The position numbers and the translations under genes are program-made. Below, one piece after another: positions 3,737 through 58,520 of a stretch of DNA of 64,000 nucleotides (the stretch's first letter is position 1; each line of letters opens with the position of its first letter). A model generated the notes under the pieces. That model was given only the letters and a program-made list of their open reading frames with translations, was not told the DNA's origin and did not search any database. The DNA comes from a virus. Location: the IMG/VR virus record IMGVR_UViG_3300031741_000001, positions 17,828 through 81,827 of that record; one strand, written 5' to 3'.

Positions 3737-4564
3737 TTGAAAGGGAGCAATATGCCAAATAGTACTATGGATGTGACGTTAACTAGGATACGTCATAATA
3801 TTCCTGAGGAGATCTTAGAAGTAGCTTTTGCAACAGAAGAAGATAATCTTTTAGAACGTGGACAGATTCCTCTATTAGAAAAGATTAAGAAAACAGTAAT
3901 TCGTGATAGATTGATGGTCGATTGTAATCTATTTGGAGGGACCAGTACAAAGATTCCTTTAGTCTTAGAGTATCATGAGAGAACGGCTGGGTTTTGGAAG
4001 GGGGGAGTTTACACCTCTCCATTATATTGTATCTATAGAATACCCCCAGAAGCTAGGAATGGGTTACCTATAGTAGCCGTTAACGGATTGTCTTTAAATC
4101 CTGGAACTGGAAACTTCTCCAGTGGTTGGGGTGGAGCGAGTATCTCAGGTATTGGTGGGGAAATTCTATCTTCTAGAACATTCGCTAACGAACCAGTATA
4201 CCCTATCCCTAAACTATTAGCTGGCGATTTGATAAAGCTTCAACCTGGACAGATGAGCCATATGGATTTTGTTCTTTCATGTAAACTATCTCACGATCCC
4301 GACTTCTCTAATATGGGAGCATCTGCTATCAATGTATTCGCCGAGTTAGCTCTATGTGCTGTTAAAGCGTATATCTATAATAAATTAAAAATAAAAATAG
4401 ATAAAGCTTTTATAAGTGGCGGATCTGAGATAACGTCATTTAAAGAGATAGTAGACGGTTACGCTGAAGAAAACACAAGATACTTAGAATTACTAGACGA
4501 GTATTTCGGCGCGTCATGTTTAGAACATGAAACACTCATGTCTTTGGCTCTCTTTATGGTCTAA
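3737..4564 (+). CDS. conserved phiKZ-like virion structural protein; true start probably at an internal Met (MPNS)
   Basis: IRHNIPEEILEVAF and AYIYNKLKIKID segments resemble the conserved jumbo-phage protein next to SbcC (recall, not searched). Confidence 0.55.
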   Translation: MKGSNMPNSTMDVTLTRIRHNIPEEILEVAFATEEDNLLERGQIPLLEKIKKTVIRDRLMVDCNLFGGTSTKIPLVLEYHERTAGFWKGGVYTSPLYCIYRIPPEARNGLPIVAVNGLSLNPGTGNFSSGWGGASISGIGGEILSSRTFANEPVYPIPKLLAGDLIKLQPGQMSHMDFVLSCKLSHDPDFSNMGASAINVFAELALCAVKAYIYNKLKIKIDKAFISGGSEITSFKEIVDGYAEENTRYLELLDEYFGASCLEHETLMSLALFMV

Positions 4565-4621: not shown

Positions 4622-4654
4622 ACCATCTACATATCTTTAAGATATGTAGATGGT
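4622..4654 (-). terminator. intrinsic terminator hairpin between convergent genes
   Basis: 15-bp perfect inverted repeat ACCATCTACATATCT/AGATATGTAGATGGT with a flanking A-run. Confidence 0.8.
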
Positions 4655-4666
4655 GTTGGGTTTCTC

Positions 4667-4831
4667 TTATAATTTTCTTTTAACAATATTCTCTATTCTC
4701 CGCTGTAAATTTTTATTCTTTTTCTTCAAATTCTCTTTTTCTTTTTTAGATTCTTTAATCACGTGTTCTTGATAAAAGACATAAATTAAGATTGCAGTTA
4801 TTGGAATTATTACTGGAAGTAATTCTGACAT
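4667..4831 (-). CDS. small single-pass membrane protein, 54 aa (MSELLPVIIPITAILIYVFYQEHVIKESKK...), not in the ORF track
   Basis: Manual translation; GGAGA ribosome-binding site upstream; hydrophobic N-terminus followed by a Lys-rich tail. Confidence 0.65.
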   Translation of the reverse strand: MSELLPVIIPITAILIYVFYQEHVIKESKKEKENLKKKNKNLQRRIENIVKRKL

Positions 4832-4833
4832 TC

Positions 4834-5124
4834 TTATTCTCCCTTTTTAATAAATTTAAGTTGATTAAAATTAAAATCTTTTCCTAGATCGCATTCTCGG
4901 TGATCTAGGAAAAGAGAGGTATATGGGTATCCTTTGTATGTCCATCGTTTGGTTTCAGTATTAAAAATTATCGATCCTCCCCTACGGAGCTTCCGAGTAT
5001 TCTGAGATAAAAACCAATAGTATTCAGTATTCCGATCTGTCAAAACCCGCAGAGTATTTAAATTTGCTTCTAGGGATGTTTGATCTAAACACCCCACATA
5101 TTTTAAATACCGTAAAACTAACAT
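4834..5124 (-). CDS. hypothetical protein
   Basis: 96-aa ORF overlapping the upstream gene, in operon. Confidence 0.6.
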   Translation of the reverse strand: MLVLRYLKYVGCLDQTSLEANLNTLRVLTDRNTEYYWFLSQNTRKLRRGGSIIFNTETKRWTYKGYPYTSLFLDHRECDLGKDFNFNQLKFIKKGE

Positions 5125-6089: not shown

Positions 6090-7895
6090 TCACTCCTTTA
6101 ACCATTTTTTAATGGATATTATTTCAATGCCATACTTAATAGCTTTTTTGGTTTTAGATGAAGTGCTATTCTCATCTGCCACTACTAAGAGATCAACATC
6201 TTTAGAAAGTCCACTAACTGGAGTGAATCCTTTATTCAACGCTATCTCTTCGAGTTCTTTTCTTGGTAATTCCATTTTCCCTGTAAAGACAACTTTAGGT
6301 CCGGTAGTTTTAGTCACAGTTCCTTTAATACCTTTAAGAGTTATCTGCGAGAGCTGTCTATCTATTAAGTCTTTATTTTCGGATAACCCATCCGATATTG
6401 TGAAAGACATTTCTTCGCCTAAATCTTTTATCTGCATTAAATCATCTTTTGTTTTAGTAAGTAGTTCGTTAAAAGACATAAAACTTAAAAGAACTTTTGA
6501 ACATCTTAGACCTATTCCATGGAATCCTAAAGATGCTAAATATTTATAATCTTCAATTACTCTAACACTCTGAATATTATTGAAAAGTTTAGTAGCTGAT
6601 TTTTCGCCATATCCTTCCAATTCAGATATATCTTTAATAGTTAGATTTAAAAGATCATCTATAGCTATCTTTTTAAATTTCTTTAAAATCTTTCTAAGAG
6701 TAGGGACTCCCAATTCTTCTATATCCAGTCTCTTTATCGATTTCAATGCTCTATTCAATACCATCTCCTCACACTCGTCGTTTAGACAAATAAGCTCTGT
6801 CCCTACTTCCATAACATCTCCTTTACAATAAGGACATGCTGTAGGGATATTCATATATCCTTTTCCCGTATGAATAACTTTAAGCATATGTGGAATTACA
6901 TCCCCAGCTCTTTCCACTTCTAGTCTATCAAGAACATGTATCATATTATCCTTTACATGTTTTAGATTATGGAGAGTCACATTCGTTATGGTTACTCCGG
7001 AGATAATTATAGGAGTTATCTTAGCTACTGGTGTTAGACAACTCGTTCCCGCTGTCCAATTGATATCCTCAATTGTAGATACTTTAGAAACCCCTGTGAA
7101 TTTAAAAGCTATCGCTCCCTTAGGGAAACTTCCAGTAGATCCTAATTCTTTATAATACGTATCGTCTTCAACCTTAACTACAACCCCATCTATCGGGTAT
7201 CCAGCGCTTTTAATAAGATTAACATGAATGTCCCATTCCTTTTTAAAGTTCTTCTTAGATACTCTAAAATGGAAATGATTGAAGTCTATTAAAGTTAATG
7301 GTTTAATATTAATATCGGAGATGTCTTTCATCCCTAAAATACCAGCTACAGCACTACGTTGGTTTTTATACTTTTCACCGTTGCTTCTTTTAAGTTGACT
7401 AAAATATTTATTATAATCAGCGTTAGTTATAATTATCTCCCCTCTAATTTTATGATCACAGCTACTTGAAAGGAATTTCAATATTTTAAGCTTATCAGAA
7501 ATATTCTGACTTTCGGTTCCTTGTCCTTTAGTAGTGAGCATCTTATTATTCAAAAAAGCACTTACCCCATCATACTTCGGTTGAATAAGAAATATTTCAT
7601 CTTTGGTTCTAGCTATTTGCTCTACCCAAGCCATCAAAGATTTTTTACCTTTAGGAGCATTATCAGCATGGTAAGTTTTATTCAAACTTAACATATCTTC
7701 ATCAATCGATCCCATCGAGTGCACTTTAGGAACTTGAGGTTTTAATAACGCGTTATCTGGGTCAAGATCTTCTAATTCTCTAAGTATAAAATCATACTCT
7801 ATATCTGTAATCTTAGGATCGCTATCTTCCCAATAAGCTTTATTATGCTTCTTTATTTCTTTTTCTAGTTTTTTAATATCGAAAACTTTTCCCAT
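6090..7895 (-). CDS. ligA: NAD-dependent DNA ligase
   Basis: Domain Ia Y...P.ITD.EYD, KYDG adenylation motif, RGE, DGVV.K, AFKF, RAGDVIP, C4 zinc finger, HhH repeats, C-terminal BRCT (VVFTG...SK..KA..YGI). Confidence 0.95.
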   Translation of the reverse strand: MGKVFDIKKLEKEIKKHNKAYWEDSDPKITDIEYDFILRELEDLDPDNALLKPQVPKVHSMGSIDEDMLSLNKTYHADNAPKGKKSLMAWVEQIARTKDEIFLIQPKYDGVSAFLNNKMLTTKGQGTESQNISDKLKILKFLSSSCDHKIRGEIIITNADYNKYFSQLKRSNGEKYKNQRSAVAGILGMKDISDINIKPLTLIDFNHFHFRVSKKNFKKEWDIHVNLIKSAGYPIDGVVVKVEDDTYYKELGSTGSFPKGAIAFKFTGVSKVSTIEDINWTAGTSCLTPVAKITPIIISGVTITNVTLHNLKHVKDNMIHVLDRLEVERAGDVIPHMLKVIHTGKGYMNIPTACPYCKGDVMEVGTELICLNDECEEMVLNRALKSIKRLDIEELGVPTLRKILKKFKKIAIDDLLNLTIKDISELEGYGEKSATKLFNNIQSVRVIEDYKYLASLGFHGIGLRCSKVLLSFMSFNELLTKTKDDLMQIKDLGEEMSFTISDGLSENKDLIDRQLSQITLKGIKGTVTKTTGPKVVFTGKMELPRKELEEIALNKGFTPVSGLSKDVDLLVVADENSTSSKTKKAIKYGIEIISIKKWLKE

Positions 7896-10510: not shown

Positions 10511-10530
10511 TAATAATATAATATATTTCT
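10511..10530 (-). promoter_or_regulatory. early (virion-RNAP-type) promoter AGAAATATATTA
   Basis: Same motif at 1073, 46698, 52563, 57365, 58478 and 63983; resembles the phiKZ early consensus TATATTAC. Confidence 0.7.
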
Positions 10531-10558
10531 ATTTTTCGTTTGAGAAAAAAAAAGAAAA

Positions 10559-10587: not shown

Positions 10588-10785
10588 TAGATCTGACATA
10601 AGAACAGGGTAACTCTTATATGAAATAACTTAAACTGATAAGTATCCCAACTTTCCTATTTTGCGAATATAGTTTCACACCTAGTATATGTTGCACATTG
10701 TTATCCACGTTAATATGAAATAACACGTTTCTACTTTTTATGTATATAGTAAAAACGCTACGTGATGGTGGTCAGTCCAGACCTA
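10588..10785 (-). ncRNA. candidate structured RNA, element A
   Basis: Several stems whose imperfections are G-U pairs on the minus strand; collinear motifs shared with element B at 41570. Confidence 0.55.
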
Positions 10786-15873: not shown

Positions 15874-16514
15874 TTTTTGATGATTCCATTTCTTTTAGTT
15901 TTTAGAATAGCTTTTTCAATTCTCTTTTTCATCTCGGGAGCTGATATGAAAACATTAAGCTTTTTGAACATAACATTTTCATACTCCACTTTAGTCATAT
16001 ACCCCATATCTAGATAAAAACGATATCTATCATCGAACCATTCTAGAATTGAAACTATAGTGTTTTCAATGTCTAAAGACTTACCTTTTATCATCTGAGT
16101 AGGTCCATGAATCATTATCTCAGCCCACTCCCTTATTTCAATGCATTCTGGAGGGGCTTCAAGTAATATTAGTGATCCACATGATGCACAGAGTCCATTA
16201 GCTACAACTTTAAGCTTAGCCCTTGTTCTATGCATTGCAGAGGCTATCCCTATCCCACCGAAGACATCCCCTCCAGGAGTTTGGATTATTATATCTATCT
16301 CATCATCTTCAGTTGCCGATAATAGCTCGTCTATCGCTTTGACGTAGACATAATTAGATAAGACGTCGCTGGTAAGATATATCTGTATTTTAAAACCAGT
16401 TTCGGTTTTAGTTTTTGATATATTCAACGCGCTAGGGAAAACTGTCCCCATCACCATACCGTTCTCTGCTTCAACTATATTTTCTTTAGTCATTGCAATG
16501 TGTTGGTTATTCAT
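15870..16514 (-). CDS. ClpP-family serine protease
   Basis: IQTPGGDV, GLCASCGS (nucleophile Ser) and IMIHGP (His); start placed at MNNQ after an AAGGA ribosome-binding site. Confidence 0.75.
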   Translation of the reverse strand: MNNQHIAMTKENIVEAENGMVMGTVFPSALNISKTKTETGFKIQIYLTSDVLSNYVYVKAIDELLSATEDDEIDIIIQTPGGDVFGGIGIASAMHRTRAKLKVVANGLCASCGSLILLEAPPECIEIREWAEIMIHGPTQMIKGKSLDIENTIVSILEWFDDRYRFYLDMGYMTKVEYENVMFKKLNVFISAPEMKKRIEKAILKTKRNGIIKK

Positions 16515-21872: not shown

Positions 21873-22553
21873 TTAGAAACGTTTTCCTAACATAGATCTA
21901 CGTTCGTCAGCTCTGTCTTTAGCAGATTGTTTTTTATAAGCTTCATGTCCGTAGTCATGACCCTTCATACTGCGTGATTCGTCAGCTCTTGATTTTGCAG
22001 ACTGTTTCTTCATGTCAGCATAACCTTCTTTTCCATAATACTTATCAAGACCGCGAGCATCATCTTCACGAGCTTTAGCACTTTCATTATATTTCTTTTC
22101 GTGAGCATAATCATCTCCGCGCATTCCACGTGATTCATCAGCTCTTGATTTTGCAGACTGTTTCTTCATGTCAGCATAACCTTCATGCCCGAAATGTTTT
22201 CCGATCATTGATTTACGCTCGTCGGCTCTATCAGCAGCTGACTGTTTTTTCCAACCGGAAGCTTCATGTCCGTAGTCGTGACCCTTCATACTGCGTGATT
22301 CGTCAGATCTGTCTTTAGATGTCTGAGCATATTTTTTCTTTTCAAGAGCTAAAAGAACTTCTTCAAGAGATATTAAAGCATCTTCTCTACAGTTAAGATC
22401 TACTACATCACGAAGAACTTCGTCTTCAACGATAAAATTTCTAATAGTTTCAGATAGACCGTGCTGGTCAACCATGTCGAAAATATTACAGATGATATCT
22501 GTCTGTGAATCTAGATCTGCGCTTCCGTTACTTTCTGTGCCGATGTTAAACAT
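21873..22553 (-). CDS. repeat protein with an acidic propeptide; candidate peptide precursor
   Basis: Six 22-28-aa units of the form KKQSA..RADE.R.M.G..[YF]GHE; own promoter-like site and own terminator. Confidence 0.8.
   Translation of the reverse strand: MFNIGTESNGSADLDSQTDIICNIFDMVDQHGLSETIRNFIVEDEVLRDVVDLNCREDALISLEEVLLALEKKKYAQTSKDRSDESRSMKGHDYGHEASGWKKQSAADRADERKSMIGKHFGHEGYADMKKQSAKSRADESRGMRGDDYAHEKKYNESAKAREDDARGLDKYYGKEGYADMKKQSAKSRADESRSMKGHDYGHEAYKKQSAKDRADERRSMLGKRF
21876..22340 (-). repeat. six imperfect in-frame tandem repeats (66-84 nt)
   Basis: Near-exact DNA duplication GATTTTGCAGACTGTTTCTTCATGTCAGCATAACCTTC near 21990 and 22147. Confidence 0.9.
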
Positions 22554-35897: not shown

Positions 35898-35904
35898 AAA
35901 AAAT

Positions 35905-35943
35905 AACTCAACTTCTCTCGTTCTGAACGAGAGAAGTTGAGTT
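35905..35943. terminator. bidirectional terminator between tube and portal
   Basis: Near-perfect 39-nt palindrome with A and T tracts on either side. Confidence 0.85.
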
Positions 35944-35964
35944 TTAGCTTTTACTATTCTACTA

Positions 35965-38355
35965 TTACCATCCACCACCACTTGAACCTTCAGAGTCGCC
36001 GTTTAAAACTTTAACTCTATCATTAACACCTTTAGATAGGTTTATTAGATATTGAGTAAGATCGGTTAAGTCAGAAGAATCTATACTTTCTAATTCTGGT
36101 AACTCAAACATTTTATGATATCCAATGTCTTTTATTACTTTCTTAAGATTTTTAGTTTTCATTAACATCTTAACGCTAGTTAGTGTATTTTTTAACTTCT
36201 GATCGTCCACCGGAATACTATCGTTTGGATATAAAGCATCGAAAATGGTATCTAGGGTTCCTACTATTTCATTAACCTCAGTATATTTACTTTTATTAGT
36301 AGCTACATTACAAGTAGGTAGAGTCACTTTAATATTTCTAATAACGTCTTCTAGAGCTACCTCTTCCTTCTCGGTACCTTCGGGCACCTTCACATCAGCA
36401 TCATCCAGTATAGCTTTTATTTTTTCACGCAATGGAAAAGAATACTTTACATAGTTTCTAATAAATTTATTATTAATAGGAGCTACTTGTCTTTGCCTAA
36501 CTCTAATCACATTGGAGAAATGTAAATCCGTAGTTGCAATCGATCTACTATACTCGTTCTGACCCATTTCATTAATAGCTGATGGCGGAACTCCTATATG
36601 GATAATTGCCATCTTAGTTAATCTCTCTAGAAGTCCTGGCTCAGCCTGAGCAATATTAGAATTCCTATGTGTCTTCTCTACGCTTAAACTACCTTCTAAC
36701 CCTTTCATATTCTTAGGGAATACTTTTGTAGCTAAACCTATGATATTTTGAGTAGAGGTGTATGGGTTTGTGTTAAAACGTGGAGTGTTCTTCATCACAG
36801 CAATATTCTTATAGGTCTGTAATGTTTCTTCAATATTAATATTCTTTTTATTAACGTCTACTTCTATTATTGTTTCATCAACTGCATTTTTCATAGTTGT
36901 TAAAACATTAGAAATAATCAGAGTAGTTCTTAGAGCTAAAAGGAATTCTATATCTTCTAGAAGCGATTTACCTGTCCCATCGTCGTTAAACTCGAAAGCG
37001 TAATACATCATTAAAGGTTCTGGGACAAAAACTATTTTAGTTTTAATACCATGAAGCATATTATAGAAAAGACATTTGGATAACCCATCATACTGGTGTA
37101 GAGTTATTCCTTCTCCAAGATCTAAACTTCCTAATTGTTCTTTAAGTAGTTTCTTAATAGTTAAAGCAAAGACAGCTTTAGCTGCTTTCTTTTTTTCGAT
37201 ACCGCTAAAATCAGAGAATATACTTTTATTCTGATATCCGTTACCATAAAGAGCCCTATAATTATCGTTAGATAATCCACTTGGGGAATCGTTAACGCTA
37301 CCCATCATACTCGAAGAGAGAACGTTATCTAAATCGTCAGTGAGAACAAAGTAACCAATATGCTCTCTAGTTGATCCTGGAACACAAACCGGAACTGTTA
37401 AAGCTGAATCCAATTCTAATACGAATGGATGATCCCCTTCAATAACATCAGCAGTACCGTTCAATGAGAAAATCTTGCTCTCACCAAATCCTAGAACTTG
37501 AGATTCCATTTTCTTTAATAGATCTCTGGATTTATCTAAACTCTTTTTACTATCCTGTATCCTAAAAGGATTACTTACAAACGATAATGAATCGAGATTA
37601 TCTTTTATAAACTCTAATGAGCCTTGCACTAGAGCTTTAGTACATTTGGATGCTTTTTGCATAGAATCAGCATCTTCTATCTCTAAAGATTCAAAAGAGA
37701 TATCAAGTATTGCGTCCTTTTCTAAATCGTCAGAGAACTCCTTAGTGAAGCTAAGATCTTTAGAATTCGTAAAGCAATTAAAACTCTCTAATCCTACACC
37801 TTTATCGGTTAAGAGATCCAATGCTCTTATTTCCGATCTAGGGACAATCATCACTGGAGCAGCTCCTTCATCGAAAAGACTTTTATCTAACCACTCTTTA
37901 AGTTTTACTCCAAATTGAAATTCGTCATTGAAGTAGTCGTTTAAAAATGTCGATAGGGATGTGTCCAAAGTCGAGTTACCTGTATCTACTTGAACATTAA
38001 TAGCATCGGTCTGCATGTCAGTTGGTGACATTATAGAACTTACATAAATCATTTTAAGTTGTGATATTTCTGGAGAGAGATACGATAGATCTTTTAACCT
38101 CTTCTTAACGGTAGATCTTTGAGATGAGATTGTTTTAATATGAGAAACCATATTCCCTATTATCTCATGTTCATTAAATCCTTTAGTTTTATCTGAAACT
38201 GTCATCTTCTGCAATTCAGATTTACTAAATTGGGATAAAACTATTTTTGAATTCTCATTTGTTTCACTTATTACATTTTGCCCACTCAAGATTGGTGATT
38301 TTACATCAAAAATATTAAAAACTCTTAAGATACTTCTAAATAAACCTTTAGCCAT
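35965..38355 (-). CDS. portal protein (phiKZ gp129-like)
   Basis: SSIMSP, PVCVPG...HIGYFVL.D and Y.AF.F...G.GKSLLE motifs; internal GLE/SFE/SLE sites. Confidence 0.75.
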   Translation of the reverse strand: MAKGLFRSILRVFNIFDVKSPILSGQNVISETNENSKIVLSQFSKSELQKMTVSDKTKGFNEHEIIGNMVSHIKTISSQRSTVKKRLKDLSYLSPEISQLKMIYVSSIMSPTDMQTDAINVQVDTGNSTLDTSLSTFLNDYFNDEFQFGVKLKEWLDKSLFDEGAAPVMIVPRSEIRALDLLTDKGVGLESFNCFTNSKDLSFTKEFSDDLEKDAILDISFESLEIEDADSMQKASKCTKALVQGSLEFIKDNLDSLSFVSNPFRIQDSKKSLDKSRDLLKKMESQVLGFGESKIFSLNGTADVIEGDHPFVLELDSALTVPVCVPGSTREHIGYFVLTDDLDNVLSSSMMGSVNDSPSGLSNDNYRALYGNGYQNKSIFSDFSGIEKKKAAKAVFALTIKKLLKEQLGSLDLGEGITLHQYDGLSKCLFYNMLHGIKTKIVFVPEPLMMYYAFEFNDDGTGKSLLEDIEFLLALRTTLIISNVLTTMKNAVDETIIEVDVNKKNINIEETLQTYKNIAVMKNTPRFNTNPYTSTQNIIGLATKVFPKNMKGLEGSLSVEKTHRNSNIAQAEPGLLERLTKMAIIHIGVPPSAINEMGQNEYSRSIATTDLHFSNVIRVRQRQVAPINNKFIRNYVKYSFPLREKIKAILDDADVKVPEGTEKEEVALEDVIRNIKVTLPTCNVATNKSKYTEVNEIVGTLDTIFDALYPNDSIPVDDQKLKNTLTSVKMLMKTKNLKKVIKDIGYHKMFELPELESIDSSDLTDLTQYLINLSKGVNDRVKVLNGDSEGSSGGGW

Positions 38356-38435: not shown

Positions 38436-40748
38436 ATGATTACTTTTAATAATATTTTTTGTGAAAACATTACATATTTCCTTAAGACTCTATGTATCAA
38501 GAATGATTACTTCGCATCTATAATCAAACAAGAGTACATGTTAAGTAACCAGCTCGATAGTCTTGCCGATATTAACAATCCGTACTACCTTAATATATGT
38601 GGGGAATACGCTCCAGGACAATCCATGATTAAAGTAACTTCAATAGAAACTGGAGAGGTTATAGATTTCACTAAATCTAATCTAAATAGAGATGCTAAGA
38701 CCAAATTTACATATAGTGTTAATAATCCAAAATTTGATGAGCTTTTAAATAGATATCCAGGGCAAGAGCATTTAATATTATCTATAAGATATCCAGCAAT
38801 AGAAACTCAACTATTACCATATACCAAAGATACAACTATTTTAATGGAAAAACTTATAGCTAGAGAAAACTATTCCATTTTAACTTACGATTCCTCATTG
38901 TTTTTTAACAATGAGGAATTTTCAATGGTTGAACGTTTAACTCAAACTATGAAACTTATTAGAGATCGATACGACATCCCTTCGTTCACTTACGAATTCT
39001 ACTACCCCCATTTGATGTGGATAAATATATGGAGTTGTTTGTTTTTAAGCTTCGTAACTCAGAGAGTTTGTAATTTAAGAACATCTAAAACTATACCTTC
39101 TCAGATTTGGGAATTTTTAACGTCTAAAGGGCTATCCAATTATCGTAATGTTTTAACAGAAAAACAAAGTTTATTCTTATATAGAAATATAGAATATCTT
39201 CTAAAGAATAAAGGCAAGCAGGGAAATCTTTCATATCTTTATGATAAACTACTAAACGAGAGTGGGGTTGCGTTATGTTCTATAGTTGTAATGCAAAATT
39301 CTAAAGGGAGTGCTGAAGATTGCGTACCAACACCTGAAGCTATCCAAGAAATATATAATACATATTCATTTCCATCTAATAATTTAGGTCGTGGCGTAGA
39401 TACTATTGGAGAAATAATAGAAGAGGAATATAAGGTTGGATTAGAACCTATTAATTCCGCTAGCGTGATAGCTTCTCAAACCGCTTCGTTTAGTAAAAAA
39501 CCTCAAACCGCAACAATGACAAACCTTATCGATATACAAGGTAGTTTCACTAAAGATTACTATCTTAATTTAAAATTAAGATTTATTTTGGATACTACAC
39601 TATCTCTAATATCCGAAAGTGTAATAAAATACAACATAGAGGTGCAAGCGCCTGATAGCGACATTAAGGTTCTATTAACTACTGGAGATGCCGTAGCTTT
39701 AATGTATTACTGCGCTATGATACAAAACCCTCAGATAGTTCTTTTCACTACAGAAAATATCCAATCTTACATTGGAGTTAGTTTTGATTGCGACGGTGAG
39801 ACTATGACTCTAACTGTTGATAATAAGGGAAAATACCTAGGGAAATATGTCGGTATATTAGAACCGATACAGATACCTACAAGCACTTATGTCAACTACG
39901 CGTTTAAAGAAAATCTAACAGTTTCTATGATCCCCACAACGTTTAGTTTTAGAAACATAACATATGAAATGTCTAAGTTTTTAGATGCTCAAACGGTAGT
40001 TGATTATTTTAAAAACACTAAAAAGAGTTTCTCTACCCCTACTGAATTTACGGACTACCTAAACGCTTCACTTGTAAACCTAATTAAATATTATGGTGAA
40101 ATGTATTCGACAATGGATAGAGTTAGGAATAGAGCGTTTTACATAGCTCTACATAGTCTTCTAAACCCTAGGGATATAAAATTTGAACTAGTCAATAGGT
40201 TCACAACTTATAAGGCTTGGTTCACTGCATATCCAGATCTAGGTAGGATAATTTCTGGATTTAAAACTAGAGCTAATCCTGCTGAATTATACTCAGCTTT
40301 CTCCATTAAGATTCTAGAAACTTTTTTAACAAATTCCACATCCAATACTCTAGAATTCTCAACAAAAAAATATGGAAAGATTAAAGAACTACTTATTCAA
40401 CTATGTAGTTATACTATTGGATTCATTAGTAGTAAAAGTAAGAGTACCGAAAGATTTATCTTCAAAAATAAAAAAATGTTAACATTAACTAAAAGTATTC
40501 ATAAATCTCCATTTTTTATTCACCTACCATTATGGAACTTTTCATCTGGGAGTAGGAGTGATGGTAAGGTAGAGATAAATAATCTAATATCTTTTAACCC
40601 TGATCGCACAACTTCGCAATTCAATTCAACTCTAGTAATAAATTTAGATAGAAAGATAGAGATAGGTTCCGATAACGCGTCAGTAACATACATACCCAAA
40701 CAAAATAAAATAAAATATAAAGGGAAATTCTATGTCAACAATATTTGA
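38436..40748 (+). CDS. virion structural/baseplate protein (phiKZ gp128-like)
   Basis: YYLNICGEY, LT.KQ.LFLYRNI.YL..N.GKQ and QLCSY motifs. Confidence 0.7.
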   Translation: MITFNNIFCENITYFLKTLCIKNDYFASIIKQEYMLSNQLDSLADINNPYYLNICGEYAPGQSMIKVTSIETGEVIDFTKSNLNRDAKTKFTYSVNNPKFDELLNRYPGQEHLILSIRYPAIETQLLPYTKDTTILMEKLIARENYSILTYDSSLFFNNEEFSMVERLTQTMKLIRDRYDIPSFTYEFYYPHLMWINIWSCLFLSFVTQRVCNLRTSKTIPSQIWEFLTSKGLSNYRNVLTEKQSLFLYRNIEYLLKNKGKQGNLSYLYDKLLNESGVALCSIVVMQNSKGSAEDCVPTPEAIQEIYNTYSFPSNNLGRGVDTIGEIIEEEYKVGLEPINSASVIASQTASFSKKPQTATMTNLIDIQGSFTKDYYLNLKLRFILDTTLSLISESVIKYNIEVQAPDSDIKVLLTTGDAVALMYYCAMIQNPQIVLFTTENIQSYIGVSFDCDGETMTLTVDNKGKYLGKYVGILEPIQIPTSTYVNYAFKENLTVSMIPTTFSFRNITYEMSKFLDAQTVVDYFKNTKKSFSTPTEFTDYLNASLVNLIKYYGEMYSTMDRVRNRAFYIALHSLLNPRDIKFELVNRFTTYKAWFTAYPDLGRIISGFKTRANPAELYSAFSIKILETFLTNSTSNTLEFSTKKYGKIKELLIQLCSYTIGFISSKSKSTERFIFKNKKMLTLTKSIHKSPFFIHLPLWNFSSGSRSDGKVEINNLISFNPDRTTSQFNSTLVINLDRKIEIGSDNASVTYIPKQNKIKYKGKFYVNNI

Positions 40749-41562
40749 ATCAGAATATTCAGTAACGACCATAATTGGATTATTGAACGAATTTGAAAGC
40801 ATGACCGCTCTACAACAAACCGTATTATCCAAGTGTACTATTAACGCTCAACATAATGTAATACCTACAGTTATGCCAACTAAGACTCCGCAACTATTCT
40901 ACTTTGGAATAGGGATTAATGGATATTATAATGTTAATCAAGATACTCCACCGTTATCGCAGCCTTATATGCCAGCAGCTACGGATATGGATTTATATCA
41001 ACCAATACCTTTTAGAATAGTTCCGATAACTGCTGATCTCTCTCCAACCGAAAGAGCTCAATATAGAATGAGAACTATGCAGACATTTAACGGAACGCAA
41101 TACTTTTGTTACTGGCTTAAATTAATTAATTTCACAACAAAAGAAGTTGAGGTGATGCAAGTTAACCCTACTGGAGGAGAAACCCCGTACGTTTTCAATC
41201 CTAAAAATCTGAAGCCTATACCAAAAAAAAGTAGTACTGGTCAAATAGTCAATGCTTCTGGCGATACCGTGATAGTAAGTTTATCAGGGACATGTCCTAT
41301 TCTGGGTAGCGAGATAGTCGAAGTTATAAATATAATGTATGGGGATCTTCGCTTTGCTAATATAAGCGAATTAGGATTCTATACTGGTCAGGATGTAACC
41401 GCTCAAGGACCCGATGGAAAAGGTGGAGAAATTTCATATACTGAAAGTGCTTATACCCAACTTTCAAGTAAATTATGCAGTCTCCCTATTCCACTATCTA
41501 AAAGCTCTAAAACTTATATTGAGACAATAGAGTATGTGAATAGTAACGTCATTAATGTTTAA
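40732..41562 (+). CDS. virion structural protein (phiKZ gp127-like)
   Basis: YFGIG..G, PIPF, YRMR, YWLK and ISELG motifs. Confidence 0.7.
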   Translation: MSTIFESEYSVTTIIGLLNEFESMTALQQTVLSKCTINAQHNVIPTVMPTKTPQLFYFGIGINGYYNVNQDTPPLSQPYMPAATDMDLYQPIPFRIVPITADLSPTERAQYRMRTMQTFNGTQYFCYWLKLINFTTKEVEVMQVNPTGGETPYVFNPKNLKPIPKKSSTGQIVNASGDTVIVSLSGTCPILGSEIVEVINIMYGDLRFANISELGFYTGQDVTAQGPDGKGGEISYTESAYTQLSSKLCSLPIPLSKSSKTYIETIEYVNSNVINV

Positions 41563-41569
41563 TAACTTC

Positions 41570-41726
41570 AGATAGCGTTTAAATGGCATTTAAGACACCA
41601 TCAAGCGTAATTGTTATGAATGACTCATAATCATTACCATGAAGACATATCTTCAATGAGGTGTGCCAAAACGATTAGTTGAATATTAAAAATATCGGAT
41701 GCTTAAAGTTTCCATTTAAAGTCAGG
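41570..41726 (+). ncRNA. candidate structured RNA, element B
   Basis: Nested stems TTTAAATGG/CCATTTAAA, TTTAAG/CTTAAA and ACACC-TCA/TGA-GGTGT enclosing two hairpins; motifs shared with element A. Confidence 0.55.
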
Positions 41727-41768
41727 CGAACTATAAGCGAGGTTTATGCTTTTAATGCATTTTAGAAT

Positions 41769-41806
41769 ACTATCTATAGGCATCTGAAAAGATGCCTATA
41801 GATAGT
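41769..41806. terminator. terminator-like hairpin between convergent units
   Basis: 17-bp perfect stem with a GAAA loop. Confidence 0.8.
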
Positions 41807-41902
41807 TTGAGGTATTCCAGTAAGTGGCTGTTCTTACTATAGTGGTTGTCTGGTTGTTTGCATAGGAAGCTTTATACTAGCCTATGCTCTAGTCTTTAAT
41901 TA

Positions 41903-43930
41903 TTAAGTAAGCAACACGTGTCCGTTAGACGCTAATGCTGCGAATTGTTTTTTAATGATATTAGTATCCCTTGTTGTATAGAGGTTTAGTTTAAAACCAT
42001 TATTAACGTCTTTACTATCTCTTATAGTAAATAATTTATTATTAGCTTTTTCTAGATCTATAAATTTACCAGCTTCACTTAGAAGCCTAGTGAAAACTTC
42101 AGAGACCTCGTCCGGTTTAGTACTTCCTAGATCGCCTTCAGGTACGTCAATATTTGTTAGATATATTCTATTTGCTTTTACCGTGAATACAGTAAACGTT
42201 ACTGCCAATGCTTCTATAGCATCACGTGCTTCTTTATTGTTATTATTAGTAGTATTACTTTCAACTATATAGCTCCAGTAATCTCCAACTCTAAATTGTC
42301 CATTTGGAGTATATTTATTACGTAGTGCTTCTATGATAATTTTCCTATCTCTCATATTCTCGAAGTCTAAAATAGTAGAATGGTCAGTAATGAATGTTTC
42401 CACTCCAATAGAAACTATATTCCGAGTCATCTTAGTATAGTCTGCATTGTTTTTAAATCTAGCGAGTTTAGGCGCGTCGCATAAGAATAATTCTTTAATG
42501 GCACTTATCTCAGTGATACCGATAAAACCATCTTCAGTATCTAACTCACCAAAAAGACCAGAACCTAGAATATAAGAATTAACACTAGATACAAGCATCT
42601 CTTCAAATATAGCTGCTGTCTTTTTCTTCTCACCATCTAGAATAGCTTCTAGAACATTACCCATCTCTTCCGGTTTGCAACCGATAAGATGTTTTTTAGT
42701 TTTATCTATCAAAGTTTTAAATTCCTCAACTGGAACTTTCTTAACCATGAGCTCTGGGAATTCTACTATCTCTAAGGATTTCTCAGTCGCTCTATTCTGA
42801 TTATCAGAACAATCATCTAACTTCTCAACAATTTCTGACTCGAAAGACGGTCTCTTAATTTTAGAAACTTTAATCTTAAAATCCGATAGGTCAGTTTTTA
42901 CTTTTTTCTGAGATATTGATGTGTGGGCGTTTTCCCATTCCTCTAAAGGCTCAATCACCCAATTGAATATCTTGGGTATCGGTTCCGTATTAAATAAATT
43001 ATCCATTTTTCCATCCCGATTTCTCGTTTCGCGTTCTGGGTATTCTGTAAAATCTCTAGAATTGCTTTTATTTTTAAAATTAGTGGCTTTTATTTCAGCC
43101 TGAGCTTTCCTAGTGGCTTCTACACTTCTAGCATTGCGGATATTCTGTTCTGCTACAGACACATAACCGTTATCATTTCGTGTAGCACCGCAGTCATATT
43201 TAGAATGTCTTGGTTGCGGATCATCATCTTCTCTATAGGAACTTATAGTCCTAGGGGCTCTATCTATAGGTTGTTCTCTACGGAATCCGCCGCTACCATT
43301 GTCGAACCCTCTATCGTTGCCGAATCCTCTATCGTTACTATAACGGCTATCGCGACAACCATCACCACCGTTACGGTTATAATAACTATTATTGCTATAA
43401 CTATCATTTCTTTGACGATTATCAAAACTTCTAGGATCTTGATATCTGTTATCGTTATTATATCCACGATCTCTATTATTTTGATACCTATTATCGTTAT
43501 TAAATCCGCGATCTCTAGGATCTTGATATCTATTATCGTTACTGTAACTACGATCTCTATTATCTTGATACCTATTATCGTTACTGTAACTACGATCTCT
43601 AGGATCTTGATACCTATTATCGTTACTGTAACTACGATCTCTAGGATCTTGATATCTGTTATCGTTATTATAACTACGATCTCTACCGCCCTGATCTTCT
43701 ATCTGTTTAAAAAGATTCTGTAACCATACCTTTAACTCATCCTCTATCTGTGAGACAGTAGGAGAACCGTATCTAGATAACTGTCTCTCATAAAAGGCTC
43801 CAACTTCATTTTCTATAGTAGCTAGAATATTTCCGGCATCTATTGCTGTTAAATTATTACTTTTAACATTAGCAGCTAATAACGTATCCGCTTTCTGCAC
43901 GATTTGTCTTGTTCCAAAATTATCTGACAT
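41903..43930 (-). CDS. protein with an N/D/R/Y-rich low-complexity repeat region
   Basis: 675 aa; six copies of DRSYSNDNRYQDPR-like units; co-transcribed with an RNAP subunit. Confidence 0.8.
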   Translation of the reverse strand: MSDNFGTRQIVQKADTLLAANVKSNNLTAIDAGNILATIENEVGAFYERQLSRYGSPTVSQIEDELKVWLQNLFKQIEDQGGRDRSYNNDNRYQDPRDRSYSNDNRYQDPRDRSYSNDNRYQDNRDRSYSNDNRYQDPRDRGFNNDNRYQNNRDRGYNNDNRYQDPRSFDNRQRNDSYSNNSYYNRNGGDGCRDSRYSNDRGFGNDRGFDNGSGGFRREQPIDRAPRTISSYREDDDPQPRHSKYDCGATRNDNGYVSVAEQNIRNARSVEATRKAQAEIKATNFKNKSNSRDFTEYPERETRNRDGKMDNLFNTEPIPKIFNWVIEPLEEWENAHTSISQKKVKTDLSDFKIKVSKIKRPSFESEIVEKLDDCSDNQNRATEKSLEIVEFPELMVKKVPVEEFKTLIDKTKKHLIGCKPEEMGNVLEAILDGEKKKTAAIFEEMLVSSVNSYILGSGLFGELDTEDGFIGITEISAIKELFLCDAPKLARFKNNADYTKMTRNIVSIGVETFITDHSTILDFENMRDRKIIIEALRNKYTPNGQFRVGDYWSYIVESNTTNNNNKEARDAIEALAVTFTVFTVKANRIYLTNIDVPEGDLGSTKPDEVSEVFTRLLSEAGKFIDLEKANNKLFTIRDSKDVNNGFKLNLYTTRDTNIIKKQFAALASNGHVLLT
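43430..43685 (-). repeat. 42-bp in-frame tandem repeat, about six copies
   Basis: Plus-strand unit approximately GATCTCTAGGATCTTGATACCTATTATCGTTACTGTAACTAC. Confidence 0.95.
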
Positions 43931-43948
43931 TATATTTCTCCTTAAAAG

Positions 43949-45460
43949 TTATATTATTTCTAAATCTTTAGGGATTATGAAATCCCCATTTTTTGTTATT
44001 TCCAAATATGGATTAATGTTCCCTGCTTTAATAGGACTACTCGTTGATATACTTAAAACGCTTTCAACTGCCAATTGGCTAGTGTGAGATTTCAACAGCT
44101 CTATTGGAATGTTAATTTTAGCTTTTTGAGCAACTCCGTCAGCTATTGATATTTCTTCATTTTTTAACGATCTGAACTTCTTAAGGTGTATCCCTAAAAG
44201 AGTATTGTCGTTATAGAAAGATGGATTAGACCTAAACACATTAGACTTACTCATCCAATTTCCTTTTTTAGAACTTCTCCTAACAAATTTCAACATCGTT
44301 TTAGGAGACAGCCCTTCTTTACTATTCAATACATCATAGAGATTATTAAAAATACTCTCACAAATAAACCCCATTATCTGAGAAAGACTACCTAGCTTCT
44401 TATCTCTAAAATCTACAGGGTTATACTTTTTAAGATTATCATCAAAGGTATAGAATACGTTTAAAAGAAATTCTTCTAAAGTCTCAACACCCATACCTAA
44501 AGTTTTTAAATTAAAGATAGCTGACGGATCCAATAGCGTATCGTTCATCGCAATACTTTTTTTAGCATGTATGTAGTTAGACACATCCTTGATATGCGTC
44601 CCGTAAGTATATCTTCCATATACTGTCATGAAGTAACTGGGGCGTTCATCATAAACTTGAGATATTGTAAACTTCTTATAAAAATTTAAAATTGTAAAGA
44701 TAGAAAACAAAACCCTACGTTTAAAAACATCTATTGTTAGCAATGGGTTAAAAGCTAGATACATATTAGTTTTAATTTTAATATATTTAAATCTACTCTC
44801 TTGAATTGATTCACATAGAAATAAATCTTCTTTATTGATACTGTAAGTCTCTAAGGTTTTGAACCACCCAATTTTCATGAGATGGTATAAGGGCAATGGT
44901 ATTTCGTATTTACTTTTCTTCTGGTGGACTTTACCAGTTATTATCGTATCATGATACGGTTTCCCTTCAGTTGGTTGGAACGTTACTCTTTCGGTTCTAC
45001 GGAAAGAGAGCCACGCTCTCCTAACTTCAAATCTTAATTCATTCACCCCTCTATAGAATCCTCTTTCTATAATAGGGAAGATAGGGAAGTATTTAGTGTC
45101 TGACTGAATTATAGCTTTATTTACCATAAACGGTATTTCCACATGTATCGGATACACGTTACCGGAGAATTCTAAATCGTACCGCATCACATAGAAGCTA
45201 CTATATGTTGTCTGTATAGTATTTTTAAGATATTTAAAAGTCTTATAATAATTAATACTATCTTCCGGAGATAGTTTTTGTTTACCTAAATATTTAACTT
45301 TGTCTTCTCCAAGAAGAATGATACACTCTTGCAATAATGTTTCAATAAAACTAGGTATCTCTTTTATATTGTCTTCCCTGTAATCGTTTATTAGATAGTC
45401 ATTGAACGGCGGTAGATGGTTAGCGTATTCTTCTAAAATATATTTCCACGTATCATTCAT
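43949..45460 (-). CDS. non-virion RNA polymerase beta N-terminal fragment (phiKZ gp123-like)
   Basis: P.FN start, Y.G...LSPE, H.SQL..ES and INPY motifs recalled for this family. Confidence 0.65.
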   Translation of the reverse strand: MNDTWKYILEEYANHLPPFNDYLINDYREDNIKEIPSFIETLLQECIILLGEDKVKYLGKQKLSPEDSINYYKTFKYLKNTIQTTYSSFYVMRYDLEFSGNVYPIHVEIPFMVNKAIIQSDTKYFPIFPIIERGFYRGVNELRFEVRRAWLSFRRTERVTFQPTEGKPYHDTIITGKVHQKKSKYEIPLPLYHLMKIGWFKTLETYSINKEDLFLCESIQESRFKYIKIKTNMYLAFNPLLTIDVFKRRVLFSIFTILNFYKKFTISQVYDERPSYFMTVYGRYTYGTHIKDVSNYIHAKKSIAMNDTLLDPSAIFNLKTLGMGVETLEEFLLNVFYTFDDNLKKYNPVDFRDKKLGSLSQIMGFICESIFNNLYDVLNSKEGLSPKTMLKFVRRSSKKGNWMSKSNVFRSNPSFYNDNTLLGIHLKKFRSLKNEEISIADGVAQKAKINIPIELLKSHTSQLAVESVLSISTSSPIKAGNINPYLEITKNGDFIIPKDLEII

Positions 45461-46697: not shown

Positions 46698-46713
46698 GTA
46701 ATAATATATTTCT
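46698..46713 (-). promoter_or_regulatory. early promoter AGAAATATATTATTAC
   Basis: Recurrent motif; lies upstream of the non-virion RNAP operon, as expected for an early promoter. Confidence 0.75.
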
Positions 46714-46783
46714 AAGATTCCAATGAGGGATTTACTTAATTAGTAAATAGCGACTTATACTATAATAGATTATAGTAATATAT

Positions 46784-52562: not shown

Positions 52563-52578
52563 GTAATAATATATATCT
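52563..52578 (-). promoter_or_regulatory. early promoter AGATATATATTATTAC
   Basis: Recurrent motif. Confidence 0.7.
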
Positions 52579-52593
52579 ATAAATAAAATGGTT

Positions 52594-56148: not shown

Positions 56149-56359
56149 TAGAAACAACACTGACCAGTGTCAGATTTGTTTAAAAAATCATCCTAGCAAT
56201 AAGGTCTTCTAATCCTTTTCGCATTATAGGTAATATAGAGTTGAATTTTATACAGTTCTAACTGTTCTCATAGATAATTTTATACTAGCTATAAGCCTAG
56301 TTCCAAATATTTCATATTACCAATAAATCATCCTTGCGGAAGAGTAAGCGTTTCGCTAT
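56149..56359. ncRNA. candidate structured RNA, element C
   Basis: Long stem TTAT-GGTAATAT/ATATTACC-ATAA enclosing two hairpins; a GCAA-capped hairpin on the minus strand. Confidence 0.35.
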
Positions 56360-57364: not shown

Positions 57365-57380
57365 ATAATAATATATTTCT
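57365..57380 (-). promoter_or_regulatory. early promoter AGAAATATATTATTAT
   Basis: Recurrent motif. Confidence 0.7.
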
Positions 57381-57405
57381 ATTTTTTGGATGAAAAAATT
57401 AAAAC

Positions 57406-58444: not shown

Positions 58445-58493
58445 ATTATTATACTGAGAGAACTAAGTTCTCTCAGTATAATAATATATTTCT
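58445..58493 (-). promoter_or_regulatory. 19-bp inverted repeat overlapping an early promoter
   Basis: ATTATTATACTGAGAGAAC-TAA-GTTCTCTCAGTATAATAAT; the right arm is part of the promoter motif at 58478-58493. Confidence 0.75.
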
Positions 58494-58520
58494 GAAAATC
58501 AATTCAAGTTTTTAAAAATA

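What the first reader, a model, noticed from the sequence alone, without database searches (positions are those of the whole stretch)
41570..41726. Structured RNA element B downstream of a baseplate-type operon
Seen on the plus strand: UUUAAAUGG (41578-86)/CCAUUUAAA (41712-20), UUUAAG/CUUAAA, and ACACC-A-UCA/UGA-GGUGU closing a junction made of AGC, hairpin GUAAU..UUAUGA/UCAUAA..AUUAC and hairpin GAAGA/UCUUC. Junction order and linker motifs match element A. As with A, it lies between the last stop codon of a late operon and a strong hairpin, in a 340-bp gap unusual for this dense genome. Note that the predicted outer stems of A and B differ, so the shared fold is only partly resolved.
Basis: partly seen in the sequence, partly recalled or inferred. 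Interest (0 to 1): 0.8.

Follow-up and report, generated by a model that had tools for sequence, protein, structure and literature searches.

The report
Hairpin cluster in a phage 3' trailer
The stretch is a non-coding trailer behind a virion-protein gene of an uncultured marine phiKZ-like jumbo phage; it holds a stable 70-nt Y-shaped fold, but I found no sign of a conserved RNA family, so it is most likely an ordinary 3' untranslated hairpin cluster.

Summary
Only part of the proposed fold holds up.

- **Core.** The inner three-way junction (41595-41664) is stable: shuffle z is -3.4, it ranks in the top 1% of 73-nt windows of this genome, and its pairing probability is 0.7-1.0 in every sequence context.
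- **Outer stems.** The two closing stems drop to probability 0.02 or less once the natural flanks are added, because a local hairpin (41701-41738) takes their 3' strands.
- **Whole element.** The 157-nt stretch folds no better than about 6% of genome windows.
- **Element A.** Homology to A is not supported by gapped alignment, nhmmer or a covariance model. Only a k-mer chain score is high, and unrelated loci reach the same level.
- **Homologues.** None appear in Rfam, in 43 syntenic loci, in five whole relative genomes, or in exact-word scans of IMG/VR and GTDB genomes. Most relatives have only 30-116 bp at this junction.
- **Data limits.** No sequence variants and no RNA data were available.

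Best reading: a lineage-specific 3' trailer hairpin cluster ahead of a shared 17-bp hairpin.

The other half of the gap, on the minus strand, carries a pseudoknot family that does covary.

The parts
40732..41562 (+). Last gene of the plus-strand virion-protein operon (276 aa, DUF7208 / phrog_3315); its stop codon is at 41560-41562.
   Evidence: ORF list; PHROG and Pfam hits; annotated as virion structural protein in cultured Chimalliviridae-type phages.
41595..41664 (+). Robust core: a Y-shaped three-way junction. The closing helix is ACACC-A-UCA/UGA-GGUGU. The long hairpin is 41607-41637 and the short hairpin 41640-41655. The bases GCCA follow directly.
   Evidence: MFE -19.9 and shuffle z -3.36. 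Genome rank 121 of 10904. Helix probabilities 0.5-1.0 in four sequence contexts. Only one G-U pair, and the minus strand folds almost as well at -19.0.
41578..41720 (+). They depend on where the RNA is cut and are probably not formed in a natural transcript.
   Evidence: Probability about 0.95 when the RNA is cut at 41570-41726, but 0.02 or less in the contexts 41563-41773, 41563-41815 and 41500-41902.
41701..41738 (+). Local interrupted 12-bp hairpin that uses the 3' strands of P1 and P2 and so competes with them.
   Evidence: Helix probabilities 0.86-0.90 in the context 41563-41815.
41769..41806 (.). Perfect 17-bp hairpin with a GAAA loop, shared by the two convergent units. It has no U-tract on either side.
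   Evidence: Inverted repeat I1, 100% complementary. Probability 0.97. It drives the whole-gap z of -5.4. The terminator consensus scan finds no U-tailed terminator here.
41809..41893 (-). Minus-strand trailer of the 675-aa gene. It holds one of four genomic copies of an ACUAG-R-N7-CUAGU-AUAAA..N7' pseudoknot (core 41860-41893) and a hairpin at 41821-41838 with loop AACAGCCA. It is not part of element B but fills the other half of the same gap.
   Evidence: Four copies found. Covariance model R2 finds exactly these four. In stem 2, 6 of 7 pairs change on both sides, 97.9% of cells are paired, and 0 of 500 shuffles reach the observed score.
41903..43930 (-). Convergent 675-aa gene with 14-aa tandem repeats. 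It has no detectable relatives in phage records or IMG/VR, and it sits where relatives have a gene of about 550 aa.
   Evidence: ORF list. No tblastn match in phage records and no IMG/VR relative. Only a weak local similarity to the positional counterpart, E 0.03. Tandem repeat D1.

Best explanation
The stretch is the non-coding 3' trailer of the plus-strand virion-protein operon of an uncultured marine phiKZ-like (Chimalliviridae-type) jumbo phage. What the sequence shows is a row of local structures rather than one closed 157-nt RNA: a stable 70-nt Y-shaped junction (41595-41664), a 38-nt hairpin (41701-41738), and the perfect 17-bp hairpin (41769-41806) shared with the convergent gene. The rest is inferred. 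The operon's transcript probably runs through the trailer to the big hairpin. The stacked hairpins would then act generically, as a barrier to 3'-to-5' exonucleases and as insulation between the two converging transcription units. Nothing points to a specific conserved RNA machine. The element is specific to this lineage and is not a homologue of element A.
For: - **Position.** It starts 8 nt after the stop codon and ends 43 nt before the shared hairpin, between convergent genes.
- **No promoter of its own.** The genome's recurrent promoter-like motif is absent from the gap. No ORF longer than 31 aa is present.
- **Stable core.** The core fold is more stable than chance and holds in every context. 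The long-range closing stems do not.
- **Local hairpins dominate in this genome.** The best-folding windows are almost all intergenic hairpins.
- **Other long trailers exist here.** They include element A and the four pseudoknot-bearing trailers.
- **The junction itself is conserved.** Relatives keep the convergent arrangement, usually with only 30-116 bp, enough for one hairpin. The extra sequence here is therefore a lineage-specific addition.
- **Precedent.** Published mapping of a Chimalliviridae phage found 132 transcript ends, 15 of them bidirectional, and a few intergenic small RNAs (PMC11512511).
Against: - Transcription of the trailer and its 3' end are not shown.
- The 17-bp hairpin lacks the U-tract that this genome's unidirectional terminators carry, so whether it terminates transcription is an assumption.
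- A top-1% fold in a gap four times longer than in most relatives could reflect a specific function that cannot be seen without comparative data.
- The fold is nearly as good on the minus strand and has a single G-U pair. The structure therefore does not fix the strand, or even show selection at the RNA level.
Confidence: 0.45

Rival explanations
1. Neutral spacer. The extra 250 bp is lineage-specific filler, for instance left by recombination at a variable junction, and its hairpins are what AT-rich sequence with palindromic TTTAAA words gives by chance.
For: - The whole element is ordinary against the genome background, at rank 267 of 4086.
- 44 of 45 pairs in the MFE-derived structure are Watson-Crick and the fold is nearly strand-symmetric.
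- No homologue was found anywhere.
- Relatives do without it.
- The neighbouring 675-aa gene is itself fast-evolving or an orphan.
Against: - The core junction is in the top 1% of the genome and well defined, with its MFE structure making up 16% of the ensemble.
- The genome is otherwise densely packed.
- The sequence is identical in contigs from four marine studies, though that mainly shows one strain.
Confidence: 0.27
2. A specific functional non-coding RNA. The Y-shaped core would be a protein-binding scaffold or a 3'-UTR-derived small RNA, one of several RNA modules that this phage places in its 3' trailers.
For: - The core fold has z -3.4 and is robust to context.
- The same gap and three other trailers carry a pseudoknot family with real covariation, so this phage does keep RNA modules in trailers.
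- The collinear word chain between A and B is high against shuffles: 64 versus 38 +/- 6, with 0 of 300 shuffles as good. A's locus is also the best partner for B genome-wide.
- Intergenic small RNAs exist in a cultured Chimalliviridae phage (PMC11512511).
Against: - No second copy and no homologue were found, and there is no Rfam match even at E 10.
- Unrelated loci reach the same chain score: 68 at 4499 on the minus strand and 65 at 36974.
- Gapped alignment puts the A-B pair only in the top 2-4% of windows.
- The shared words do not fall in equivalent helices. UGUUAU and UCAUA pair with each other in B, but in A they are adjacent, and A's MFE pairs that stretch with GGAUAAC instead.
Confidence: 0.2
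3. A DNA-level element. One form would be a small non-autonomous insertion bounded by imperfect inverted ends, TTTAAATGG(N2-4)TTTAAG. Another would be a pair of protein-binding palindromes.
For: - The 9-bp and 6-bp inverted ends lie 125 nt apart.
- The pairing is all Watson-Crick and strand-symmetric.
- The site is variable among relatives.
Against: - There is no other copy in the 82-kb contig or in five relatives' genomes.
- Exact-word scans of IMG/VR and of 185,579 prokaryote genomes found nothing.
- No target-site duplication is visible in the flanks.
- A 9-bp inverted repeat is roughly what chance gives in 340 AT-rich bases (my own estimate).
Confidence: 0.05
4. A hidden micro-gene: the 28-codon frame 41679-41765, which starts with TTG and lies downstream of the GAGGUG in the closing helix.
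For: - The frame ends 3 nt before the big hairpin.
- An SD-like GAGGUG lies at 41659-41664.
Against: - The start codon is TTG and the spacer is 14 nt.
- The frame is only 28 aa and has no similarity to anything in relatives' loci.
- Frames of this size are expected by chance.
Confidence: 0.03

Closest known systems
3'-UTR stabiliser or insulator hairpins between convergent bacterial and phage operons (REP-type stem-loops, bidirectional terminator regions)
   Same: It lies directly behind a stop codon between convergent genes. It consists of stacked local stem-loops ahead of one long shared hairpin. It has no coding capacity and no promoter motif of its own.
   Different: It is not repeated, unlike REP elements. 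The shared hairpin has no U-tract. The first structure is a three-way junction rather than a simple hairpin.
Intergenic and UTR-derived small RNAs mapped in Chimalliviridae phage 201phi2-1 (PMC11512511)
   Same: The phage group is the same in the broad sense, and the elements are short structured non-coding stretches between genes. That study reports 11 small RNAs, 3 of them intergenic, all of unknown function.
   Different: Those were defined by mapped 5' and 3' ends, and one is conserved in position across genera. Here there are no RNA data and no conservation. The conserved one lies in a 5' UTR, not a 3' trailer.
phi29-type packaging RNA (pRNA), a three-way-junction phage RNA
   Same: Both are phage-encoded RNAs built around a three-way junction.
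   Different: There is no Rfam match in this region even at E 10, and the only sub-threshold hits there are spurious ones to the 17-bp hairpin. pRNA belongs to small podoviruses with protein-primed genomes, which I state from general knowledge. The size and the junction linkers differ.
The ACUAG/CUAGU pseudoknot family of this same genome (four copies, one 90 nt away on the other strand)
   Same: It sits in the same kind of place, a trailer between a stop codon and a hairpin, and in the same gap.
   Different: That family has four copies and compensatory changes in 6 of 7 stem-2 pairs. Element B has one copy, no comparative support and none of the family's motifs.

Membership tests
Shared family with 'element A' (10588-10785, minus strand) | Sequence similarity beyond background | tested here: not met
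   - Smith-Waterman: 406 of 500 shuffles score as well.
- Three gapped scoring schemes: 61-102 of 2702 genome windows score at least as high as A-B.
- nhmmer: nothing at A up to E 100.
- Only the exact-word chain is high (64 versus 38 +/- 6), and unrelated loci match that level.
Shared family with 'element A' (10588-10785, minus strand) | Same secondary-structure architecture | tested here: not met
   Covariance model R1, built from B's fold, gives no hit in 10588-10785 at E 10 with filters off. A's MFE is a rosette of six hairpins, not a nested three-way junction.
Any Rfam family (including pRNA, hammerhead and other ribozymes, riboswitches) | Covariance-model score at or near the gathering threshold | tested here: not met
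   There are no hits at gathering thresholds in the window. At E up to 10 the only hits are spurious microRNA models on the 17-bp hairpin, and nothing covers 41578-41726.
tRNA or tRNA-like element | Cloverleaf with D, anticodon and T arms; acceptor stem followed by a discriminator base and CCA | tested here: not met
   ARAGORN finds nothing at default settings or at 80% threshold. Only junk calls appear at 60% or in mitochondrial mode. The closing helix is followed by GCCA, but the fold has two arms, not three, and no T-loop.
Intrinsic (hairpin plus U-tract) terminator | G+C-rich stem followed by a run of U | tested here: not met
   The consensus scan finds none in 41000-42400. The hairpins of B are followed by CAUGAAG and AAUGAGG, and the 17-bp hairpin by UUUGAGG.
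This genome's ACUAG/CUAGU pseudoknot family | ACUAG-R-N7-CUAGU-AUAAA followed by the complement of N7 | tested here: not met
   The pattern and model R2 find four copies, none within 41570-41726. The nearest is at 41857-41896 on the minus strand.
Miniature inverted-repeat insertion | Terminal inverted repeats, target-site duplication, multiple copies | tested here: not met
   Imperfect inverted ends are present. No duplication is visible in the flanks. There are no further copies in the contig, in relatives, or in exact-word scans of IMG/VR and GTDB genomes. The host genome is unknown, so the copy-number test is incomplete.

The most novel reading that the evidence does not exclude
The Y-shaped core would be a genuine, lineage-specific RNA module of a marine nucleus-forming-type jumbo phage. 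It would belong to a habit of loading 3' trailers with functional RNA parts, alongside the covarying pseudoknot family in the same gap. It might act as a protein-binding scaffold. It might instead pair through its UGAGGUGUGCC strand with the conserved GGAAUACCUC-type tails of the pseudoknot modules.
Probability: 0.15. Interest if true: 0.55.

Novelty: new member of a known kind. Interest (0 to 1): 0.2.

Why it matters
As it stands this matters little. It is one more structured 3' trailer in an uncultured phage, with no conservation and no expression data.

Its value is mostly as a contrast. In the same 340-bp gap, the element that looked most elaborate to a reader without tools has no comparative support. 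A shorter pseudoknot on the other strand has four copies and clear compensatory changes.

If closer relatives or metatranscriptomes later showed that the core junction is kept or processed, it would add to a very small set of known non-coding RNAs in phiKZ-like phages. The RNA biology of that group, inside a phage nucleus and using phage RNA polymerases, is little explored.

Tried and rejected
- **RNA evidence.** No RNA holder was listed among the sequencing runs.
- **Natural variants.** Contigs from four marine DNA runs were laid on 39000-45000. There are no differences in the gap. A relative at about 85-90% identity appears only in short pieces at 39646-39972 and near 43010, which do not reach the gap.
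- **DNA similarity.** BLAST against phage records found nothing. The only matches within the own genome are the self-match and the hairpin.
- **IMG/VR pattern scans.** A 20-mer and a junction pattern with a variable middle both gave zero hits.
- **GTDB genome scans.** Two 24-mers from the core gave zero hits.
- **Relatives found through the flanking proteins.** The DUF7208 protein alone found none in IMG/VR. Its alignment found 15 IMG/VR and 30 JGI loci, none above 45% identity. The 675-aa protein found none.
- **Gene remnant.** blastn and six-frame tblastn of the gap (stops read as X) against relatives' loci gave only chance-level hits, all with E above 0.2.
- **tRNA-like idea,** prompted by GCCA after the closing helix: rejected by ARAGORN.
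- **Pseudoknot motif elsewhere.** All 51 IMG/VR pattern hits lack full stem-2 pairing and are therefore chance. Model R2 found nothing in five whole relative genomes.
- **Earlier scan notes.** Look-ups by sequence and by relatives returned nothing.
- **Timed-out run.** I replaced it with a composition-regressed MFE scan.

Full report
**Setting.**
- The window is bases 17828-81827 of an 81.8-kb IMG/VR virus contig estimated to be about 31% complete.
- Its genes match PHROG families for tail sheath, tail tube-like protein, virion structural proteins and a polymerase subunit.
- The gene just upstream of the finding is a DUF7208 protein. It has about 30% identity to 'virion structural proteins' of phiKZ-like jumbo phages of Pseudomonas, Erwinia, Serratia and others.
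- The nearest relatives I could reach are metagenomic and share at most 45% identity. One at 60% could not be fetched.
- The phage occurs in marine metagenomes from four studies.
- 'Baseplate-type operon' is therefore not established. 'Virion-protein operon' is.

**The observation.**
- The gap 41563-41902 (340 bp) lies between the plus-strand DUF7208 gene (stop at 41560-62) and a convergent 675-aa minus-strand gene that ends at 41903.
- The reverse strand folds less well, with z -1.75.
- The strong hairpin is a perfect 17-bp stem with a GAAA loop at 41769-41806. It accounts for most of the whole-gap z of -5.4.

**How much of the fold is real.**
- I scanned the whole contig with 157-nt windows on both strands and regressed MFE on composition. 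Element B then scores z -1.5 and ranks 267 of 4086, so about 6% of windows fold as well.
- The inner three-way junction behaves differently. Cut out as 41595-41667 it gives -19.9 kcal/mol, z -3.36, with 1 of 200 shuffles as good, and the MFE structure makes up 16% of the ensemble.
- In a 73-nt genome scan the junction ranks 121 of 10904. Thirty-three loci are as good or better, most of them long intergenic hairpins.
- Partition-function pairing probabilities settle the architecture.
- With natural flanks (41563-41773, 41563-41815 or 41500-41902) those stems fall to 0.02 or less, while P3, P4 and P5 stay at 0.5-1.0.
- The 3' strands of the outer stems are taken up by a local hairpin at 41701-41738, with probability about 0.9.
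- The defensible element is therefore a 70-nt Y-shaped junction followed by separate hairpins, not a closed 157-nt multi-junction RNA.
- The junction has a single G-U pair and folds almost as well on the minus strand, -19.0 against -19.9. Structure alone does not fix the strand.

**Relation to element A.**
- Local alignment of A with B is at chance: 406 of 500 shuffles score as well.
- A covariance model built from B's fold and run with filters off finds only B itself in the window. Nothing at A reaches E 10.
- A's own MFE is a rosette of six hairpins.
- One measure does stand out. The best collinear chain of exact words of 5 nt or more scores 64, against 38.2 +/- 5.7 in dinucleotide shuffles, with 0 of 300 as good.
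- In a scan of real genome windows, A's locus is B's best partner and B is A's second best.
- However, unrelated loci reach 68 and 65 in the same scan. Three gapped scoring schemes put A-B only in the top 2-4% of windows, and nhmmer sees nothing.
- The shared words also do not sit in equivalent helices.
- I conclude that homology with A is not supported. A faint relationship cannot be excluded.

**Homologues elsewhere.**
- None were found. Rfam gives nothing at gathering thresholds or, over the element itself, at E 10.
- Model R1 finds nothing in the other 17.9 kb of the contig, in 43 syntenic loci of relatives, or in five whole relative genomes totalling 1.26 Mb.
- Exact-word scans of IMG/VR and of 185,579 prokaryote genomes are empty.
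- ARAGORN rejects a tRNA-like reading, even though GCCA follows the closing helix.
- The gap has no frame longer than 31 aa, no similarity to relatives at DNA or translated level, and no copy of the genome's recurrent promoter-like motif.

**What relatives have at this junction.**
- The arrangement is conserved: the DUF7208 gene, then a convergent gene of about 550 aa, then a convergent gene of about 520 aa.
- The 520-aa gene is clearly orthologous to the window's 503-aa gene, with E 4e-94.
- In roughly three quarters of 37 loci the spacer is only 30-116 bp, enough for one hairpin. A few have 350-1100 bp, but I counted only frames of 150 aa or more, so those may hold small genes.
- The 250 extra bases here are therefore a lineage-specific addition beside a fast-evolving 675-aa gene.

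**What fills the rest of the gap.**
It is one of four copies of an ACUAG-R-N7-CUAGU-AUAAA..N7' pseudoknot.
- A small model finds exactly those four. On the model-fitted alignment, 6 of 7 stem-2 pairs change on both sides, 97.9% of cells pair, and 0 of 500 shuffles reach the score. Slid controls collapse.
- The alignment leans towards that structure, and two of the copies are near-duplicates, but the signal is clear.
- That family, not element B, is the well-supported RNA in this gap. I did not find it outside this genome.

**Mechanism.**
- *Shown:* the position, the lack of coding capacity, the stability of the core, the instability of the outer stems, and the uniqueness of the element.
- *Inferred:* the virion-protein mRNA runs through the trailer to the shared hairpin, and the stacked local structures protect its 3' end and separate the two converging units.
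- Published mapping of a cultured relative shows many hairpin-type transcript ends, some bidirectional, and a few intergenic small RNAs of unknown function (PMC11512511).
- I put this reading at 0.45, neutral spacer at 0.27, a specific non-coding RNA at 0.20, a DNA-level insertion at 0.05, and a micro-gene at 0.03.

**Verdict.** The element is an ordinary kind of thing, a 3' trailer hairpin cluster, in an unusual phage. Interest is low unless closer relatives or RNA data show otherwise.

Noticed in passing
window 41857-41896 (-), 56264-56304 (-); L048 16477-16516 (-), 6533-6573 (-): There are four copies of an H-type pseudoknot: ACUAG, one purine, a 7-nt stem-2 strand, CUAGU, AUAAA..., then the stem-2 complement. 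Stem 1 is invariant. Stem 2 shows changes on both sides in 6 of 7 pairs, and its G-U pairs appear only on the minus strand. All copies lie in trailers behind stop codons.
   Followed up: partly
window 41821-41838 (-); L048 about 16436-16453 (-) and about 6453-6468 (-): A second module lies downstream of the pseudoknot: a short hairpin with a conserved loop (AACAGCCA, CACAGCCA or AACAGACA) and stems that differ (GUAAG/CUUAC, ACAAG/CUUGU, GUAA/UUAC). In two copies it is followed by a GA(A)UACCUC tail that resembles an anti-Shine-Dalgarno sequence.
   Followed up: no
window 41657-41667 and 41808-41818 (+): The 3' strand of B's closing helix, UGAGGUGUGCC, resembles UGAGGUAUUCC just past the big hairpin. 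It could therefore pair, in 10 of 11 positions, with the minus-strand GGAAUACCUCA tail of the pseudoknot module. I did not test this, and it may simply reflect Shine-Dalgarno-like GAGGU words.
   Followed up: no
window 46699-46714, 57366-57381, 52564-52579, 58479-58494, 10516-10531 (all -): The motif TAGAAATATATTATTA recurs upstream of minus-strand genes. It appears 22 times with up to 3 mismatches, against 11.4 expected, and the best copies are all intergenic. It is probably a phage promoter class.
   Followed up: partly
window 35898-35948, 4622-4655, 41769-41806: Convergent gene junctions carry long perfect hairpins without U-tracts, whereas unidirectional gene ends in this genome have hairpins followed by 9-11 U. 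This suggests two kinds of transcript-end signal.
   Followed up: no
window 43388-43723: Six tandem 42-nt (14-aa) repeats lie inside the 675-aa gene, which has no detectable relatives. Assemblies from two runs break into short contigs exactly there.
   Followed up: no
window 39646-39972 and about 43010-43060: Short contigs in one marine run differ at about 10-15% of positions from the window. A related strain or species therefore exists, and it could supply the missing comparative data for the gap.
   Followed up: no
window 21882-22325: Internal direct repeats of 67-123 nt, spaced 156-165 nt apart, lie within the 226-aa minus-strand gene 21873-22553. This indicates a repeated protein domain.
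   Followed up: no
window 4660-5117: Another long convergent gap (553 bp) holds two strong hairpins (4622-4655 and about 4876-4915), a possible small membrane-protein frame between them on the minus strand, and a roughly 200-nt structured trailer on the minus strand. That trailer has z -2.8 when the 4876-4915 hairpin is included.
   Followed up: no
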